A stretch of DNA of 64,000 bases from Acidobacteriota bacterium. Its GTDB lineage: Bacteria; Acidobacteriota; UBA6911. Within the stretch, counting starts at the first letter, position 1; every line of letters starts with the position of its first letter. The translations under genes and the position numbers were made by a program. Shown here piece after piece: positions 7,160 through 51,728 of the stretch. The stretch covers positions 4,448,001-4,512,000 of the forward strand of contig OY761556.1 of assembly GCA_963664705.1 (NCBI GenBank), given 5' to 3'. The notes below the pieces were generated by a model, which did not search any database, was not told the DNA's origin, and saw only the letters and a program-made list of their open reading frames with translations.

Positions 7160-7176
7160 AGGAGCCTATTGTAGCA

Positions 7177-7208
7177 TTGACGATTGATGAATGACGATTG
7201 ACGATTGA
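7177..7208. repeat. short 7-nt tandem repeat (TTGACGA-like) in the ntrY-ntrX spacer
   Basis: ttgacgattgatgaatgacgattgacgattga. Confidence 0.7.
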
Positions 7209-23397: not shown

Positions 23398-24213
23398 ATG
23401 AAGGGACGATCCTACATTACTGTTTTGTTTGTTATTGTGGTTCTCCTATTCTCTTCGGCTGCCGGATACTCCAAGACTTCGGCCCGTAAGCGGGCTAAAC
23501 GTGTATCTCAAAAGACCACCCAAACAGGACAAAAATACACGGTTCACCCGGGCGACAATCTGGGAAAAATCGCCAAGGATTTCGGCATCACAACCAAGGC
23601 GATTCAAGCGGCCAACGGGATGAAGAACAACAGGATCAAAGCGGGCCAAGTCCTGAACATACCTGTCTCGAAAACGGCAAAAGCCAAACAGGAAAAAGCA
23701 CCGGTAAAACCGCAGCTGCCCGACATTCTGAATACGTTGAACAAGGCAACCTATATGTCCGCGGTAGCTCCGGCTCCTGCCGACACGGAAGAGGTAAAGG
23801 ACTCTGAAGATATCCCGACGAGGATTCGTCTGGTGCAGGCCGGGTTTGAAATGCTCGGCGTGCGCTATCGTTTCGGGGGATCCGGATCCAGCGGAATTGA
23901 TTGTTCCGGCCTGGTAAAAAATCTTTTCTCCAAATTCAACATTGATCTGCCCAGATCTTCGAAAGAACAGTACCAGCAGGGAAAGAAAGTCAGCAAAGAT
24001 GACTTGCAGGTTGGAGACCTGGTTTTCTTTTCCTCAGGTGGTACCCAGCCGACGCATGTTGGGATTTATATAGGCAACAACCAGTTTTTGCATGCGGCTC
24101 GAAAGGCCAAGCAAGTGGTTGTCAGCGATCTCAGCAAATTGTGGTATACGATGCGCTACCTTGGAGCCCGACGAATCGCCGGACTCTGGGGGGATGACCC
24201 GGTTACCGAATAA
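23398..24213 (+). CDS. LysM + NlpC/P60 (C40) cell-wall endopeptidase
   Basis: Signal peptide; YTVHPGDNL.KIA LysM; YRFGG...GIDCSG, GDLVFF, HVGIY, FLHA. Confidence 0.94.
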   Translation: MKGRSYITVLFVIVVLLFSSAAGYSKTSARKRAKRVSQKTTQTGQKYTVHPGDNLGKIAKDFGITTKAIQAANGMKNNRIKAGQVLNIPVSKTAKAKQEKAPVKPQLPDILNTLNKATYMSAVAPAPADTEEVKDSEDIPTRIRLVQAGFEMLGVRYRFGGSGSSGIDCSGLVKNLFSKFNIDLPRSSKEQYQQGKKVSKDDLQVGDLVFFSSGGTQPTHVGIYIGNNQFLHAARKAKQVVVSDLSKLWYTMRYLGARRIAGLWGDDPVTE

Positions 24214-24297
24214 TCTTCGCTCTCAAAAGCAGCCACTAATTCCACGAATTCCCACGAATTTAGTTGATCAAATTGTATCCAGCCCAATTAGATAGGT

Positions 24298-24663
24298 ATG
24301 TTGCTGAACAAGGAACTATCCTATCGCATTGTGGGAGCAGCCATGGAGGTGCACCGTGAACTCGGTTGCGGCTTCCTCGAAGCAGTGTACGAAGACGCAC
24401 TGTGTCACGAGTTCATTCTGAGCAGCATCCCATACCAGCGCCAGGTGGAGATTCCAATCTATTATAAGGGAGTTCGGATGGGTAAATATTTCGCCGATCT
24501 CCTGGTCGATGGGACGATCATTGTTGAAATCAAAGCTGCCTCCGGCTTTGCAGAGAGGCATATAGCTCAGGCGCTGCATTATCTGGCTGCAACGGATCTT
24601 AGATTGGCAATCCTCATTAACTTTGGCACTCAATCCCTGCAAACAAAGCGTGTTATCCGGTGA
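24298..24663 (+). CDS. GxxExxY family protein (PD-(D/E)XK nuclease-like)
   Basis: IVGAAMEVHRELGCGFLEAVY (GxxExxY), ADLLV...IVEIK, Q..HYL, LINFG. Confidence 0.93.
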   Translation: MLLNKELSYRIVGAAMEVHRELGCGFLEAVYEDALCHEFILSSIPYQRQVEIPIYYKGVRMGKYFADLLVDGTIIVEIKAASGFAERHIAQALHYLAATDLRLAILINFGTQSLQTKRVIR

Positions 24664-24762
24664 TTCGTGTAAATTCGTGGAATTCGAAGCCAAGCAGCCA
24701 CTAATTCCACGAATTCCCACGAATTTTATTGATCAAATTGTATCCAGCTCAATTAGATAGGT

Positions 24763-24903
24763 ATGTTGCTGAACAGTGTACGAAGATGCACTGTGCCACG
24801 AGTTCATTCTGCGTTGCATTATCTGGCTGCAACGGATCTTAGATTGGCAATCCTCATTAACTTTGGCACTCAATCCCTGCAAACAAAGCGTGTTATCCGG
24901 TGA
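24763..24903 (+). pseudogene. internally deleted GxxExxY copy 2; still an open 46-aa mini-ORF
   Basis: MLLNSVRRCTVPRVHSALHYLAATDLRLAILINFGTQSLQTKRVIR*; lacks the equivalents of 24311-24384 and 24421-24571. Confidence 0.8.
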
Positions 24904-24991
24904 TTCGCGTAAATTTGTGGAATTCGAAGCCAAGCAGCCACTAATTCCACGAATTTTTTGATCAAACTGTATCCAGACCAATGAGACAGGC

Positions 24992-25132
24992 ATGTTGCTG
25001 AACAGTGTACGAAGAGGCACTGTGTCACGAGTTCATCCTGCGCTGCATTATCTGGCTGCAACGGATCTTAGATTGGCGATCCTCATTAACTTTGGCACTC
25101 AATCCCTGCAAACAAAGCGTGTTATCCGGTGA
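24992..25132 (+). pseudogene. internally deleted GxxExxY copy 3; still an open 46-aa mini-ORF
   Basis: MLLNSVRRGTVSRVHPALHYLAATDLRLAILINFGTQSLQTKRVIR*; same two deletions as copy 2. Confidence 0.8.
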
Positions 25133-25324
25133 TTCGTGTAAATTCGTGGAATTCGTGGCCGTTTTTGTTTTTGCAATCTGAAATTATCATGTTGTGGTAT
25201 GCTTGCGCACTCATGACAATGCAGTATCAGCATGAAGCAGTAGCCCGGCATCATTGTCTGAAAAATTGTTTTAAGCTGAAATACGCCCAATTTCAGCCAT
25301 TCTGATCACTAAAAGGAGCGAAGC

Positions 25325-26686
25325 ATGGTTGATTATGTAAATATTTTTATGTCCCGCCTGCAGGCCAAGAATCCCGGTGAAACGGAATTCCACCAGGCTG
25401 TTCAGGAAGTTGTTGAATCTCTCTCTCTTGTTCTGGACAGGCATCCGGAATATCGGTCTGCCAAGATTCTGGAACGCATCGTTGAGCCCGAACGCGTCCT
25501 CATGTTCCGGGTACCCTGGACAGATGACCAGGGAGAAATCCAAGTAAACCGCGGATTCCGCATTGAAATGAACAGCGCTATCGGCCCATACAAAGGCGGC
25601 CTGCGTTTTCATCCTTCCGTAAATCTCGGCATTCTGAAATTCCTGGCCTTCGAACAGGTATTCAAGAACAGCCTGACGACGCTTCCTATGGGCGGTGGCA
25701 AGGGCGGATCGGACTTTGATCCTAAGGGGAAAAGCAACAATGAAGTCATGCGCTTCTGCCAGAGCTTCATGACCGAGCTCAGCCGACATATCGGCCCCAA
25801 CACGGACGTTCCGGCCGGAGACATCGGCGTCGGCGGACGGGAGATCGGTTATATGTTCGGTCAGTACAAGAGACTGCGCAATGAGTTCACCGGTGTATTG
25901 ACCGGCAAAGGCTTGAACTGGGGCGGATCCCTAATCCGGCCGGAAGCCACCGGCTATGGCTGCGTTTATTTCTGCGCCGAAATGTTGGCCACTCGCAACC
26001 AGACCATGGAAGGCAAGATTTGCCTTGTTTCCGGAAGCGGAAACGTATCTCAATACACCATCGAAAAGATCCTGCAACTGGGCGGCAAAGTTGTCACATG
26101 CTCCGACTCCGACGGCTACATCTATGATGAAGAAGGCATCGATGAAAAGAAGCTGGCATACATCATGGAACTGAAGAACGTGAAGAGGGGAAGAATCAAG
26201 GCCTACGTCGAAAAGTACAAGAACGCCGTGTACACACCGGTGGATCGGTCCAAGGATTACAATCCTCTCTGGGATCACAAAGCAGACTGCGCATTCCCAA
26301 GCGCGACCCAGAATGAAATCAACGCGAAGGATGCCCGCAATCTGTTGAAGAACGGTGTCTACGTGATCGGAGAAGGCGCCAACATGCCGACGCACTTCGA
26401 AGGCGTGCGCCTCTTCCTCGATGCGAGGGTTCTGTACGGACCGGGAAAAGCAGCCAATGCCGGCGGCGTGGCGGTATCCGGACTGGAAATGTCCCAGAAC
26501 AGCATGCGTCTACCCTGGACCAAACAGGAAGTGGACAACAGGCTGGGCATGATCATGAAGAGCATCCATGCCACATGCGTGGAATGTGCAGATCGTTTCG
26601 GCACTCCTGGCAATTACGTCAACGGTGCCAACATCGGCGGATTCCTCAAAGTTGCGGATGCAATGATCGATCAAGGCTTGGTCTAG
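25325..26686 (+). CDS. gdhA: NADP-specific glutamate dehydrogenase
   Basis: GPYKGGLRFHPSV, FEQVFKNSLT.LPMGGGKGGSDF, DVPAGDIGVG, RPEATGYG, SGSGNV, GKAANAGGVA.SGLEMSQN. Confidence 0.96.
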   Translation: MVDYVNIFMSRLQAKNPGETEFHQAVQEVVESLSLVLDRHPEYRSAKILERIVEPERVLMFRVPWTDDQGEIQVNRGFRIEMNSAIGPYKGGLRFHPSVNLGILKFLAFEQVFKNSLTTLPMGGGKGGSDFDPKGKSNNEVMRFCQSFMTELSRHIGPNTDVPAGDIGVGGREIGYMFGQYKRLRNEFTGVLTGKGLNWGGSLIRPEATGYGCVYFCAEMLATRNQTMEGKICLVSGSGNVSQYTIEKILQLGGKVVTCSDSDGYIYDEEGIDEKKLAYIMELKNVKRGRIKAYVEKYKNAVYTPVDRSKDYNPLWDHKADCAFPSATQNEINAKDARNLLKNGVYVIGEGANMPTHFEGVRLFLDARVLYGPGKAANAGGVAVSGLEMSQNSMRLPWTKQEVDNRLGMIMKSIHATCVECADRFGTPGNYVNGANIGGFLKVADAMIDQGLV

Positions 26687-26707: not shown

Positions 26708-26771
26708 AGCCACGAATTGCACGACTTCAGCGAACCGTTTATGGCTCGTGTATTGCGTGCAATTCGTGGCT
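26708..26771. repeat. gene-less CACGAATT inverted-repeat element (REP/MITE-like), possibly also a terminator after gdhA
   Basis: Perfect 16-bp IR agccacgaattgcacg / cgtgcaattcgtggct followed by a T-rich tail; same ends as the GxxExxY cassette. Confidence 0.85.
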
Positions 26772-30000: not shown

Positions 30001-31248
30001 ATGCAATCCTACAACTCGTTTGAGGTCGCTCAGACGGAGATCCGGGCGGCCGCAAAGGTATTAAACCTTGATCAGGCCACGCTGGATCTGCTGCTTTGGC
30101 CCCAACGGGAGTTTCAGTTCACACTCCCCGTGAAGATGGACAATGGGGAAACAGTCATCCTGCGCGGCTATCGTATCCAGCATAATTTCGCACGCGGCCC
30201 GGCGAAGGGCGGGATACGATTTCACCCTGATGAAACCATCGATACCATGCGAGCCCTGGCGGGCTGGATGACATGGAAGACTGCGGTGGCAGACCTTCCT
30301 TTGGGCGGCGGCAAGGGCGGAGTGGTTTGCGATCCGCGCAAAATGTCGGCCAGGGAGTTGGAAAACACCGCCCGCGCCTATGTGCGCGCGATCTGGCAGC
30401 ACATTGGCATAGACCGGGATGTACCGGCTCCGGATGTCTATACCAATCCTCAGACCATGGCATGGATGATGGATGAGTATGAAACGATAACCAATCAGCA
30501 TCAGCCCGGCGTGATGTCGAACAAACCGTTATCTCTCGGTGGAAGCGAAGGACGGCGCGATGCCACGGCCCGCGGCGGTGTCACGGTCGTCAGAGAAGCC
30601 TGCCGGGCTTTTGGCGTGGATCCGCGTGGACCGTACGCCATCCAGGGTTTCGGCAGCACCGGCCAGCGCATTGCCATGTTTCACCGCGAATTGCTGGGAG
30701 GAGGAAAGCTGATTGCGGTCTCCGATTCGAGCGGCGCGGTTTACAACCCGGATGGATTCAATCCGAAGGATCTGGTGAATCACAAGCTGCGTACCGGATC
30801 GGTCACCGGTTTTCCAGGATCTCAATCGATCGAAATCAATTCTGTACTGGAACTGGACGTTTCGATTCTCTACCCGGCTGCACTCGAGAATGCAATCAAC
30901 GCCGGAAATGCGAAAAAGATTAAGGCAAAGATTATCTGCGAACTGGCAAACGGGCCGACAACACCGCAGGCGGACCGGATCCTGTTCGAAAAGGGAGTGC
31001 ATGTCATTCCGGATTTATTGGCCAACGCAGGAGGCGTAATCGGATCCTACCTGGAGATGGTGCAAAACCGGGAGGCATACTACTGGAAGGAATCGGCGGT
31101 ACACGATACTCTCGATGCGACCCTCACGCGAGCCTACCAGACGGTAGCCCATGGGGCAAAAGCGAGGAAAATCCCGATGCGCACGGCTGCGATGGTGGTG
31201 GCTGTTGCTCGTGTCGCGGAAGCCTGCAAACTCCGCGGCTGGGTATAG
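30001..31248 (+). CDS. second Glu/Leu/Phe/Val dehydrogenase, with divergent motifs
   Basis: GPAKGGIRFHP, MTWK, LPLGGGKGG, DVPAPDV, ELANGPTT, ANAGGV. Confidence 0.92.
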   Translation: MQSYNSFEVAQTEIRAAAKVLNLDQATLDLLLWPQREFQFTLPVKMDNGETVILRGYRIQHNFARGPAKGGIRFHPDETIDTMRALAGWMTWKTAVADLPLGGGKGGVVCDPRKMSARELENTARAYVRAIWQHIGIDRDVPAPDVYTNPQTMAWMMDEYETITNQHQPGVMSNKPLSLGGSEGRRDATARGGVTVVREACRAFGVDPRGPYAIQGFGSTGQRIAMFHRELLGGGKLIAVSDSSGAVYNPDGFNPKDLVNHKLRTGSVTGFPGSQSIEINSVLELDVSILYPAALENAINAGNAKKIKAKIICELANGPTTPQADRILFEKGVHVIPDLLANAGGVIGSYLEMVQNREAYYWKESAVHDTLDATLTRAYQTVAHGAKARKIPMRTAAMVVAVARVAEACKLRGWV

Positions 31249-35865: not shown

Positions 35866-36048
35866 ACAGATGTGGACACCCATCGTTTCCGGAGACAGAT
35901 GTGGACACCCATCGTTTCCGGAAAAAACCGAAAACCTGGATAATTCCTACAACCGAGAATGCAAAGGGCTTGGCTATTTGCGCTAGTAGCGAGCAAACCG
36001 GAGGGTAGCGGGTAGAATCAAGAAGCCTCCATGTCGGTGGGTGTCCAC
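35866..36048. repeat. 28-bp tandem repeat (x2) and an inverted GTGGACACCCA arm at the MFS duplication junction
   Basis: acagatgtggacacccatcgtttccgga at 35866 and 35895; tgggtgtccac at 36038-36048. Confidence 0.85.
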
Positions 36049-38577: not shown

Positions 38578-38636
38578 TGCCACGAATTACACGAATTATA
38601 CCGAATCAGGCCTCAATATTCGTGCAATTCGTGGCA
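38578..38636. repeat. gene-less CACGAATT inverted-repeat element
   Basis: tgccacgaattacacgaat / attcgtgcaattcgtggca (18 of 19 complementary). Confidence 0.85.
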
Positions 38637-51056: not shown

Positions 51057-51728
51057 CTAGACTACGTCTTCTTCGTCCGAATCCTTAAAATCAGCCATAT
51101 AATCTAGATCCGTCTCTTCGTTGTGGTCATCATCATACTCACCGAAGATCTGGCCTCCGTTGCGCTCCCGAATGGGCCCTTTTCTGAATCCCATTTCGGT
51201 TTTGGGTCCGTAATTGGCTTTTCGCTTCCGAGCCGGCTTGGCATCCGGGCCAAAATTACGGCTGCGCCGTTCCGCACGTGACGAACGCTCATTTTCCATC
51301 GGATTTGAAGAAAAATCCGATGGTCCGCCCAGCGAAGGCCGGGGCGTAAATCCCGGTCGAGGCGTGAATCCCGGTCGAGGCGTAAATCCCGGCCGAGGTG
51401 TGAATCCCGGTCGAGGTGCCCCGGTGTTCGCTCCCGCAGGCCGCGCATACCCCGGTCTTGGTCCGGAATCGGGACGATTCTCCCGTGCACGGGCTTCATT
51501 GATAGTAATGTTGCGCCCTTTGAACGGCTGGTTGTTTAGCTTACGGCTCGCTTCCTCGGCTTGCGCCGGGTCGCTGAACTCGACAAATGCAAACCCTCGC
51601 CGTTTACCGGTTTCGCGATCCACCGGAATAATGACGGTCGAGAGTGGTCCGACGGATGAAAAGAACTCCCTCAGATCCGGCTCAGTCACATCGTAGGGAA
51701 GATTCCCCACAAACAAACGTACAGGCAT
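51057..51728 (-). CDS. RRM RNA-binding protein with a low-complexity RPGFTP-repeat tail and acidic C-terminus
   Basis: RNP2 LFVGNL, RNP1 RGFAFVEF, INEARAR. Confidence 0.92.
   Translation of the reverse strand: MPVRLFVGNLPYDVTEPDLREFFSSVGPLSTVIIPVDRETGKRRGFAFVEFSDPAQAEEASRKLNNQPFKGRNITINEARARENRPDSGPRPGYARPAGANTGAPRPGFTPRPGFTPRPGFTPRPGFTPRPSLGGPSDFSSNPMENERSSRAERRSRNFGPDAKPARKRKANYGPKTEMGFRKGPIRERNGGQIFGEYDDDHNEETDLDYMADFKDSDEEDVV
51337..51418 (-). repeat. 18-bp coding tandem repeat (x4) encoding RPGFTP
   Basis: ggcgtRaatcccggtcga units. Confidence 0.9.

What the first reader, a model, noticed from the sequence alone, without database searches (positions are those of the whole stretch)
24692..25159. 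Two tandem mini-copies whose shared double deletion restores the frame to a 46-aa C-terminal peptide
Seen: copies 2 and 3 keep both arms (the copy 3 left arm is one unit shorter), the ATG and the stop. Both lack the same two blocks, 74 nt (24311-24384) and 151 nt (24421-24571). Each deletion alone shifts the frame, but together they remove 225 nt and are in frame, giving 141-nt ORFs (24763-24903, 24992-25132) that end in the same 30 residues as the full protein (ALHYL...KRVIR). The GxxE part of the motif and the D...ExK catalytic segment are exactly what is lost. Inference: these are either non-autonomous derivatives amplified in tandem, or catalytically dead mini-proteins or RNAs acting as inhibitor or antitoxin. 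Frame restoration has a 1-in-3 chance of being accidental.
Basis: partly seen in the sequence, partly recalled or inferred. Interest (0 to 1): 0.8.

Follow-up and report, generated by a model that had tools for sequence, protein, structure and literature searches.

The report
Dead tandem copies of nuclease cassette
Two shortened copies of a small nuclease-family gene sit in tandem behind the intact gene; they are likely broken duplicates whose restored reading frame is accidental, and their mirror-image ends belong to a genome-wide family of hairpin repeats that this uncharacterised enzyme would likely cut and help spread.

Summary
A 121-aa GxxExxY (PD-(D/E)XK-fold) gene between inverted arms is followed by two copies lacking the same 74 and 151 nt, which give 46-aa ORFs. 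Read graphs show both copies at single-copy depth. Random double deletions leave an open frame 21% of the time. 0 of 43 deleted copies of a second cassette in this genome keep one. 0 of 157 homologous loci have an in-frame mini. The orthologous site in a relative holds a single cassette with a different, frameshifting deletion. The minis are most likely dead duplicates made at the parent locus. The arms belong to 90 intergenic hairpin doublets with co-varying arms, and only one arm pair holds a gene. That gene is conserved in place (dN/dS 0.08), and two sister genomes have only the empty hairpin there. This resembles RAYT/REPIN systems with an unrelated enzyme fold. Caveat: the one cassette lineage with dispersed deleted copies carries IS1634 ends, so dispersal need not be the nuclease's work. 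This scan noted GxxExxY cassettes before on other DNA; I found no paper describing them.

The parts
23398..24213 (+). Upstream host gene, LysM + NlpC/P60 cell-wall peptidase (271 aa); the cassette starts about 10 nt after its stop
24224..24261 (+). Left arm of copy 1: A-tract plus three 9-10-nt subunits (CCACTAATT/CCACGAATT)
   Evidence: pair I2: 36 nt, 86% complementary to 25132-25167
24298..24663 (+). Intact GxxExxY gene, 121 aa, PD-(D/E)XK fold, with invariant D67, E77, K79
   Evidence: TIGR04256 141.7 bits against cut-off 35; PF13366; alignment; model pLDDT 95; fold searches
24311..24384 (+). Block 1 (74 nt) missing from both minis; 2-nt microhomology
24421..24571 (+). Block 2 (151 nt) missing from both minis; junction lies between imperfect 9-nt direct repeats (7 of 9 alike)
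24663..24691 (+). Tip-less right arm of copy 1 (24663-24686) plus 5-nt filler (24687-24691); the duplication junction, repeated at 24903-24931
24692..24931 (+). Copy 2 (240 nt): left arm, 5' leader, doubly deleted gene with 46-aa ORF 24763-24903, tip-less right arm and filler
   Evidence: own contig piece at single-copy depth
24932..25167 (+). Copy 3: left arm 11 nt shorter, same two deletions, 46-aa ORF 24992-25132, complete right arm 25132-25167
   Evidence: own contig piece
25325..26686 (+). Downstream host gene, NADP-specific glutamate dehydrogenase (453 aa)
26708..26771 (.). Gene-less doublet of the same arm family just after the gdh stop (16-nt perfect arms, 32-nt loop); one of 90 such doublets in the genome

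Best explanation
The two minis are likely non-coding, dead duplicates of a hairpin-bounded GxxExxY gene cassette, likely made at this spot by break-and-repair or template switching at the arms, and the breaks would likely come from the cassette's own nuclease, which is predicted to recognise and nick the repeated arm motif. Shown: the anatomy, the shared junction and deletions, the genome-wide arm family, the series full / deleted / arms-only at the orthologous site, and the lack of frame conservation. Inferred order: (1) the cassette was duplicated head to tail, losing the right-arm tip and gaining a 5-nt filler that resembles the left-arm tip; (2) the second copy lost two blocks at short or imperfect homologies; (3) unequal exchange between the shared 121-nt 3' segments doubled the mini, which yields exactly full-J-mini-J-mini; (4) the copies then drifted apart. 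Inferred and untested: the protein is an active nuclease on arm hairpins and maintains the arm doublets in trans, as RAYT is thought to do for REPINs. I put the 'dead duplicates, frame accidental' part at about 0.85 and the 'own nuclease starts it' part at about 0.6 given that.
For: Frame: 21% of simulated double deletions stay open. In this genome 0 of 43 deleted family-2 units are open; of 15 loci that keep both start and stop the net frame is 0 in 4, 1 in 5, 2 in 6, and all four net-0 loci stop at codon 19; 23 of 43 units lost the start region. In G005, 2 of 4 copies of an in-frame deletion lineage already carry premature stops. The orthologous site in L277 has one cassette with a different 134-nt frameshifting deletion. 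All 4 substitutions in the 36-nt middle block change the mini peptide. Deletion junctions have more microhomology than random (mean 1.28 against 0.69, n=25, p about 0.006). Gene-arm link: inverted arms flank 105 of 144 homologous genes against 0 of 129 shifted controls, and every GxxExxY subfamily in the genus with intact flanks shows its own arm motif by eye. Arm family: 90 doublets, 83 outside long ORFs, 71 within 60 nt after a stop against 376 of 2000 random non-ORF sites; both arms deviate from consensus in the same way at 15 positions against a mean of 2.0 (max 8) when re-paired at random. Only this locus has a gene between inward-facing arms less than 500 nt apart. The Y1/RAYT-type gene and the five four-helix-bundle genes of the genome do not carry these arms. 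The gene is kept in place under purifying selection (dS 0.77, dN 0.06 against L277 over 69 codons). Catalytic triad invariant in 100 sequences; PD-(D/E)XK fold.
Against: No activity of the protein was tested; a shared fold shows no function, and the fold matches are tied at Z 7-8. Family-1 minis have not moved: they occur only at the parent locus, and in 5 other genomes with related cassettes no two-ended deleted mini was found. The only lineage with dispersed deleted copies carries the right-end tip of an IS1634 element (17 of 26 loci here; 12 of 16 units in three relatives against 0 of 157 other loci), so that dispersal may be due to a DDE transposase. Loops of arms-only doublets show no detectable remnant of this cassette (best local score 11 among 21 loops), so 'collapse to an empty hairpin' is not shown. 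The doublets' position after stop codons and their co-variation fit ordinary selection for terminator-like hairpins equally well. 5 of 6 substitutions in the retained coding pieces are synonymous in the parent frame (p about 0.014, noticed after the fact), which neutral decay does not predict. One in-frame deletion lineage in G005 reached 4 loci and 2 copies are still open 80-aa ORFs.
Confidence: 0.55

Rival explanations
1. Passive slippage. The minis are dead duplicates made by host replication slippage and recombination at any long hairpin, with no role for the nuclease; the arm doublets are terminator-like repeats spread by host processes or by other transposases, and the gene simply sits inside one.
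For: Microhomology is modest; the minis never left the locus; 71 of 90 doublets follow a stop codon; four-helix-bundle genes, which are not known nucleases (recalled), are bounded by similar short-unit inverted arrays of other sequence; dispersal of the family-2 copies goes with IS1634 ends, and that family is reported to make 8-514-bp direct repeats (PMC2266710, passage), like the 13 of 26 family-2 loci with long flanking repeats.
Against: It does not explain why 105 of 144 homologous genes in several phyla keep subfamily-specific arms tight against the gene nor why the catalytic triad is invariant. Long repeats do not track the IS tip significantly (10 of 17 with tip, 3 of 9 without; p 0.41), and the IS1634 copy itself shows no long repeat at its ends.
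Confidence: 0.3
2. One reading: the 46-aa peptides are selected, catalytically dead inhibitors or antitoxins of the full nuclease.
For: Both copies keep start, stop and open frame, and the 2 of 2 substitutions in the shared 30 C-terminal codons are synonymous (chance 0.06-0.12). An in-frame deleted lineage exists in G005.
Against: Chance of an open frame is 21% and the two copies are one event; 0 of 43, 0 of 157 and the orthologous frameshift listed above; the full gene was maintained at this site to dS 0.77 while the sister lineage shows no mini; the peptide holds only half a helix and two strands of the fold plus 12 scrambled residues.
Confidence: 0.05
3. The minis are kept as DNA or RNA decoys or as a stronger terminator: extra arm pairs titrate the nuclease or insulate gdh from read-through, whatever the reading frame.
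For: Each mini folds into a long arm-closed hairpin (copy 3: -73.4 kcal/mol, z -3.1); the array lies between two co-directional genes.
Against: The genome already has 90 doublets; relatives manage with one hairpin or none at this site; arms of copies 2 and 3 are accumulating damage; no Rfam match.
Confidence: 0.06
4. The array is an assembly artefact.
For: No contig piece spans the whole array, and the supporting runs are one sample.
Against: Copies differ by 8 or more private substitutions each; copy-specific pieces stand at single-copy depth and the shared piece at about 2.3x in 4 of 4 runs.
Confidence: 0.02

Closest known systems
REPtron / RAYT (TnpA-REP) with REP, REPIN and BIME repeats (PMC8266576 and PMC3116915, passages read)
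   Same: A single-copy nuclease gene bordered by inverted repeats; many gene-less intergenic doublets that form hairpins; tandem arrays; no sign that the gene itself moves (kept at one site under purifying selection).
   Different: The enzyme has a PD-(D/E)XK fold, not an HUH tyrosine fold. Arms are short arrays of a 9-10-nt unit, not GTAG-tagged palindromes. Internally deleted gene copies occur. No cleavage or transfer activity is shown.
MITEs derived from insertion sequences by internal deletion
   Same: Both ends are kept and the interior is lost; amplified copies exist.
   Different: No DDE transposase in the cassette; no target duplication seen at this locus; the two minis are not dispersed; deletions differ from copy to copy in the related family.
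GxxExxY protein family (TIGR04256; Pfam PF13366 PDDEXK_3)
   Same: The full gene is a clear member (141.7 bits, cut-off 35).
   Different: The family is listed as function unknown with many horizontal transfers (PMC3424549, table row read); no link to repeats was found in my paper searches.
IS1634-family elements with long variable direct repeats (PMC2266710, passages read)
   Same: Applies to the second GxxExxY lineage of this genome, whose deleted copies often carry the IS right-end tip and 20-118-nt flanking repeats.
   Different: The locus of this finding has no IS end and no flanking repeat.
Cas4 (SSO0001, 4ic1), restriction-type and Hjc-type PD-(D/E)XK nucleases
   Same: Core fold: Foldseek E 2e-4 to Cas4; VIA-align Z 8.1 (rmsd 4.3, 100 aligned), with BpuSI, BglII and SwaI tied at Z 7.5-7.9; Hjc Z 6.6.
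   Different: 11-20% identity; only 121 aa; no cysteine cluster among the conserved columns; no solved relative by sequence.

Membership tests
GxxExxY family (TIGR04256 / PF13366) | Profile score over the curated cut-off and GxxExxY motif (full gene) | tested here: met
   141.7 bits against 35; PF13366 132.4 against 22. The minis score 27.6 and 20-21, under the cut-offs.
PD-(D/E)XK nuclease superfamily | Core fold with conserved D...ExK | tested here: met
   D67, E77, K79 invariant in 100 sequences; model and fold searches
PD-(D/E)XK nuclease superfamily | Nuclease activity and substrate | not testable with these tools
   needs biochemistry
REPtron / RAYT-REPIN | HUH (Y1) tyrosine transposase | tested here: not met
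   Protein is PF13366 with a PD-(D/E)XK fold; the genome's one PF01797 gene has no such arms within 300 nt
REPtron / RAYT-REPIN | GTAG-tagged palindromic REP units | tested here: not met
   By inspection of the doublets listed: arms are arrays of CCACGAATT-type units with A/T-tract flanks and no GTAG tag
REPtron / RAYT-REPIN | Single-copy gene bordered by its cognate repeats | tested here: met
REPtron / RAYT-REPIN | Genome-wide intergenic doublets forming hairpins, with tandem arrays | tested here: met
   90 doublets, 83 outside long ORFs, co-varying arms, three arrays
REPtron / RAYT-REPIN | Enzyme cleaves or transfers its repeats | not testable with these tools
   needs biochemistry
MITE of a TIR transposon | Terminal inverted repeats kept, interior deleted | tested here: met
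   (the right arm of copy 2 lacks its tip)
MITE of a TIR transposon | Copies dispersed to new sites | tested here: not met
   Interior sequence of the minis matches only the parent locus
MITE of a TIR transposon | Target-site duplication | tested here: inconclusive
   None visible at this locus; long repeats absent from non-array doublets; short duplications were not tested systematically
MITE of a TIR transposon | Cognate DDE transposase with the same ends | tested here: not met
   The only gene between these arms is GxxExxY (arm pairs under 500 nt apart were examined)
Type II toxin-antitoxin or nuclease-inhibitor pair | Conserved adjacent partner ORF | tested here: not met
   0 of 157 homologous loci; absent at the orthologous site
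Type II toxin-antitoxin or nuclease-inhibitor pair | Partner frame under selection | tested here: not met
   the one hint the other way is 2 of 2 synonymous changes in the last 30 codons
Type II toxin-antitoxin or nuclease-inhibitor pair | Expression, binding, toxicity and rescue | not testable with these tools
   needs RNA data and bench work
IS1634-carried composite element | IS end next to the cassette | tested here: not met
   Not at this locus (L023 negative); present for the second GxxExxY lineage

The most novel reading that the evidence does not exclude
GxxExxY proteins are the enzymes of a second, RAYT-independent class of repeat-maintaining systems: a minimal PD-(D/E)XK nuclease, inherited in place, that cuts its own subfamily-specific arm hairpins and thereby seeds terminator-like doublets genome-wide. 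This locus is a snapshot of the process acting on the enzyme's own cassette (duplication, deletion, collapse towards an empty hairpin).
Probability: 0.4. Interest if true: 0.8.

Novelty: new variant of a known kind. Interest (0 to 1): 0.5.

Why it matters
The specific claim of tiny inhibitor peptides would have been striking, but it does not survive the frame test. What remains gives a very large function-unknown family a concrete, cheap test: a named substrate (its own arm hairpins), named catalytic residues and a closed genome with three cassette subfamilies, each with its own repeat family. If the enzyme acts on the arms, bacteria have a second route to REP-like repeats, built on a different fold from RAYT. 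The IS1634 observation also matters for interpretation: dispersed deleted GxxExxY copies, the usual argument that the cassette moves itself, can come from riding on another element's ends.

Tried and rejected
Expression: no RNA holder was listed, so nothing is concluded. The raw-read run X6 gave 0 reads and is no test; X5 holds only small low-depth pieces and was not used. No Rfam match at E up to 1. Promoter and terminator scan: nothing above chance. No solved relative by sequence. A TTAGAT-like motif before the start codon, seen in this genus, is not general: 2 of 135 homologous leaders have it at that position; rejected. Programmed, recurrent deletion junctions: junction positions differ between genomes and lineages; rejected. 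Loops of empty doublets as cassette remnants: no signal. IS tip as the cause of long flanking repeats: not significant. RAYT or four-helix-bundle proteins as owners of these arms: their genes lack them. First two census scripts mis-oriented or missed units and were replaced; 2 of 28 regions there had a single arm and gave no unit. In one search one spurious alignment (L109) was left out of the counts. In one search, 13 of 157 loci lacked enough flank and were dropped; the loci are not independent (near-duplicates, many Chloroflexota). Junction microhomology was read from optimal alignments to diverged donors, which can inflate it. Absence of adjacent minis in draft assemblies is weakened by collapse of tandem repeats. 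Paper searches that found no description of GxxExxY-arm cassettes; subscription papers and preprint supplements are not covered.

Full report
1. Observation. The window holds, between a LysM-NlpC/P60 gene (23398-24213) and gdh (25325-26686), three head-to-tail copies of one unit. Copy 1 carries an intact 121-aa GxxExxY gene (TIGR04256, 141.7 bits against cut-off 35). Copies 2 and 3 lack the same 74-nt and 151-nt blocks and give the two 46-aa ORFs described: four native residues, 12 out-of-frame residues and the native last 30. The right arms of copies 1 and 2 lack 12 nt at the tip and join the next copy through an identical 5-nt filler. Copy 2 differs from copy 1 at 8 positions and copy 3 at 8 plus an 11-nt shorter left arm. 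Contig graphs of four runs from one sample show copy-specific pieces at single-copy depth and the shared 3' piece at about 2.3x, so the array is very likely real; no piece spans it.

2. Is the restored frame meaningful? Simulated double deletions of similar total size leave the net frame in 34% and a fully open frame in 21% of 20,000 trials, and the two minis are one event. The genome is a single 6.89-Mb contig with three GxxExxY genes. The second gene has 43 internally deleted units at 26 loci. None keeps an open start-to-stop frame; 23 lost the start region; among 15 loci that keep both ends the net frame is 0, 1, 2 in 4, 5, 6 loci, and the four net-0 loci stop at codon 19. These units share junctions and are not independent. 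Counting 25 distinct junctions across this genome, G005 and L277, 6 are in frame (p 0.40). Against my reading, one in-frame 138-nt deletion reached four loci in G005; two copies are open 80-aa ORFs and two have premature stops; three other lineages there and in G021 that keep both ends are out of frame. Among 157 homologous loci from genome and metagenome collections none has an adjacent in-frame mini; one has a duplicated 3' end plus arm and three have a second longer copy. In five other genomes with related cassettes no two-ended mini was found. Within the minis, the four substitutions in the middle block all change the peptide, while the two in the last 30 codons are silent. Five of the six are silent in the parent frame (p about 0.014, post hoc); I cannot explain this and treat it as probably chance.

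3. History of the site. A metagenome contig (L277) covers the orthologous nlpC-gdh interval and carries one cassette with a different 134-nt frameshifting deletion. Its retained 69 codons differ from copy 1 by dS 0.77 and dN 0.06, so the gene stayed at this site under purifying selection for a long time. Of 19 relative loci fetched, 12 contained both flanking genes; none has the gene there, and two (G002, G014) have an arms-only hairpin of the same family directly after the nlpC stop. On a gdh tree (19 rows, one gene, 1100 columns) these two are sister to G000 plus L277 with support 91/94. The site therefore shows four states: triplicated, single deleted, arms only, and nothing. The tree does not tell whether the gene was lost from G002/G014 or inserted into an existing hairpin.

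4. The arms. They belong to a repeat family with 174 and 187 matches on the two strands (13 in 2 Mb of shuffled sequence, so many solo hits are chance). Ninety doublets lie under 120 nt apart in either orientation; 83 are outside long ORFs, which cover 82% of the genome, and 71 lie within 60 nt after a stop codon against 376 of 2000 random non-ORF sites. Paired arms share deviations from consensus at 15 positions against 2.0 expected on random re-pairing. Across homologues, inverted arms flank 105 of 144 genes against 0 of 129 shifted controls, and other subfamilies in the genus have their own arm motifs. The genome's Y1 transposase gene and five four-helix-bundle genes do not carry these arms.

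5. The protein. D67, E77 and K79 are invariant in 100 sequences. The model is confident (pLDDT 95) and matches PD-(D/E)XK nucleases: Cas4 first by Foldseek (E 2e-4), and Cas4, BpuSI, BglII and SwaI tied at Z 7.5-8.1. The peptide keeps only the second half of helix 86-99 and the last two strands.

6. A caveat on mobility. The second lineage's dispersed copies look like proof that the cassette moves: 13 of 26 loci have long flanking direct repeats (aligned lengths about 20-118 nt) against 4 of 300 random sites, and 10 of 26 are tandem. But their outer right end matches the end of a complete IS at C1:6057793-6059434 that encodes an IS1634-family transposase (325.8 bits, cut-off 100). The tip is present at 17 of 26 loci here and at 12 of 16 units in three relatives, against 0 of 157 other homologous loci and 0 of 17 other loci in the genus. 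Two IS1634-family members are reported to make 8-514-bp repeats (PMC2266710, passage). The link between tip and long repeat is not significant (p 0.41). So dispersal of deleted copies may be hitch-hiking, and the finding's own cassette shows no sign of having moved.

7. Mechanism. Most likely the cassette was duplicated by a template switch from the right arm to the left-arm tip, the second copy lost two blocks at short homologies (junction microhomology averages 1.28 against 0.69 at random), and unequal exchange in the shared 121-nt 3' segment doubled it; the repeat finder's 229-nt period starting at 24571 fits this. These steps are inferred from anatomy. That the nuclease itself starts such events by nicking arm hairpins, and maintains the doublets in trans, is inferred from the tight gene-arm link and the conserved active site, and is untested. 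Passive slippage remains a serious rival (0.3). The inhibitor peptide is unlikely (0.05).

8. Comparison with what is known. It works most like a REPtron: a single-copy, non-moving nuclease gene bordered by repeats that also occur genome-wide as doublets and arrays (PMC8266576 and PMC3116915, passages). It is not a member: no HUH fold, no GTAG tag. It is not shown to be a MITE, since the minis are not dispersed. PDDEXK_3 is listed as function unknown (PMC3424549, table row). The term GxxExxY occurs in 3 held papers, 2 listed: one is an incidental mention (passage), the other I saw only as a listing. Searches found no description of these cassettes. Earlier AI notes of this scan report GxxExxY cassettes with inverted arms and deleted or tandem copies in at least 10 other genomes; no note held all my words for the frame question or for the IS1634 link.

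9. Verdict. Observation confirmed; interpretation half right. The frame-restoring peptides are probably an accident. The underlying gene-and-repeat system is a variant of a known kind of organisation with a different enzyme, apparently not in print, with a clear bench test. Interest 0.5.

Noticed in passing
G000:C1:2163480-2164200 (L034, L280) and 25 further loci listed: Second GxxExxY cassette with 43 internally deleted units of many different deletion patterns; 10 of 26 loci are tandem arrays (up to 7 units) whose repeat unit often includes host flank; 13 of 26 have long flanking direct repeats. The full gene sits inside a duplicated arm of the first repeat family.
   Followed up: yes
G000:C1:6057793-6059434 (L279): Complete single-copy IS1634-family element; its right-end tip is fused to most deleted copies of the second GxxExxY cassette here and in G005, G021 and G022, forming a composite non-autonomous element. 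Short gene-less elements with the same ends also occur (e.g. C1:1230860-1231100).
   Followed up: partly
G000:C1:3325358, 3103103, 1375899, 235720, 361654: The five four-helix-bundle (TIGR02436) genes are flanked by short-unit repeat arrays, each of its own sequence and in most cases inverted, a layout parallel to the GxxExxY cassettes.
   Followed up: no
G000:C1:3800400-3801050 (L041): Third GxxExxY gene with its own arm family (28 matches in 25 clusters) and no deleted gene copies.
   Followed up: partly
window 24383-24419 and 24571-24660 against copies 2 and 3: 5 of 6 substitutions in the retained coding pieces are silent in the parent frame although the middle block is read out of frame in the minis (p about 0.014, post hoc). 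Unexplained.
   Followed up: yes
window 26708-26771 and 38579-38635: Two gene-less doublets of the same arm family inside the window, the first directly after the gdh stop.
   Followed up: partly
G000:C1:4894538-4894990 and 6525317-6525778: Two other tandem arrays of family-1 arm doublets whose loops are unrelated to the GxxExxY gene (BIME-like).
   Followed up: no
G005 loci L066, L069, L072, L075: An in-frame 138-nt deletion lineage (80-aa ORF lacking the catalytic segment) at four loci; two copies open, two with premature stops.
   Followed up: yes
window 25325-26686 and 30001-31248: Two glutamate-dehydrogenase-like genes within 6 kb, on either side of a 993-aa protein with a PEP-synthase-like domain; the second was judged by eye and not scanned.
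   Followed up: no
window 51343-51416, 35866-35922, 7176-7208: Short tandem repeats (18-nt x 4.1, 29-nt x 2, 7-nt x 4.7) reported by the repeat finder.
   Followed up: no
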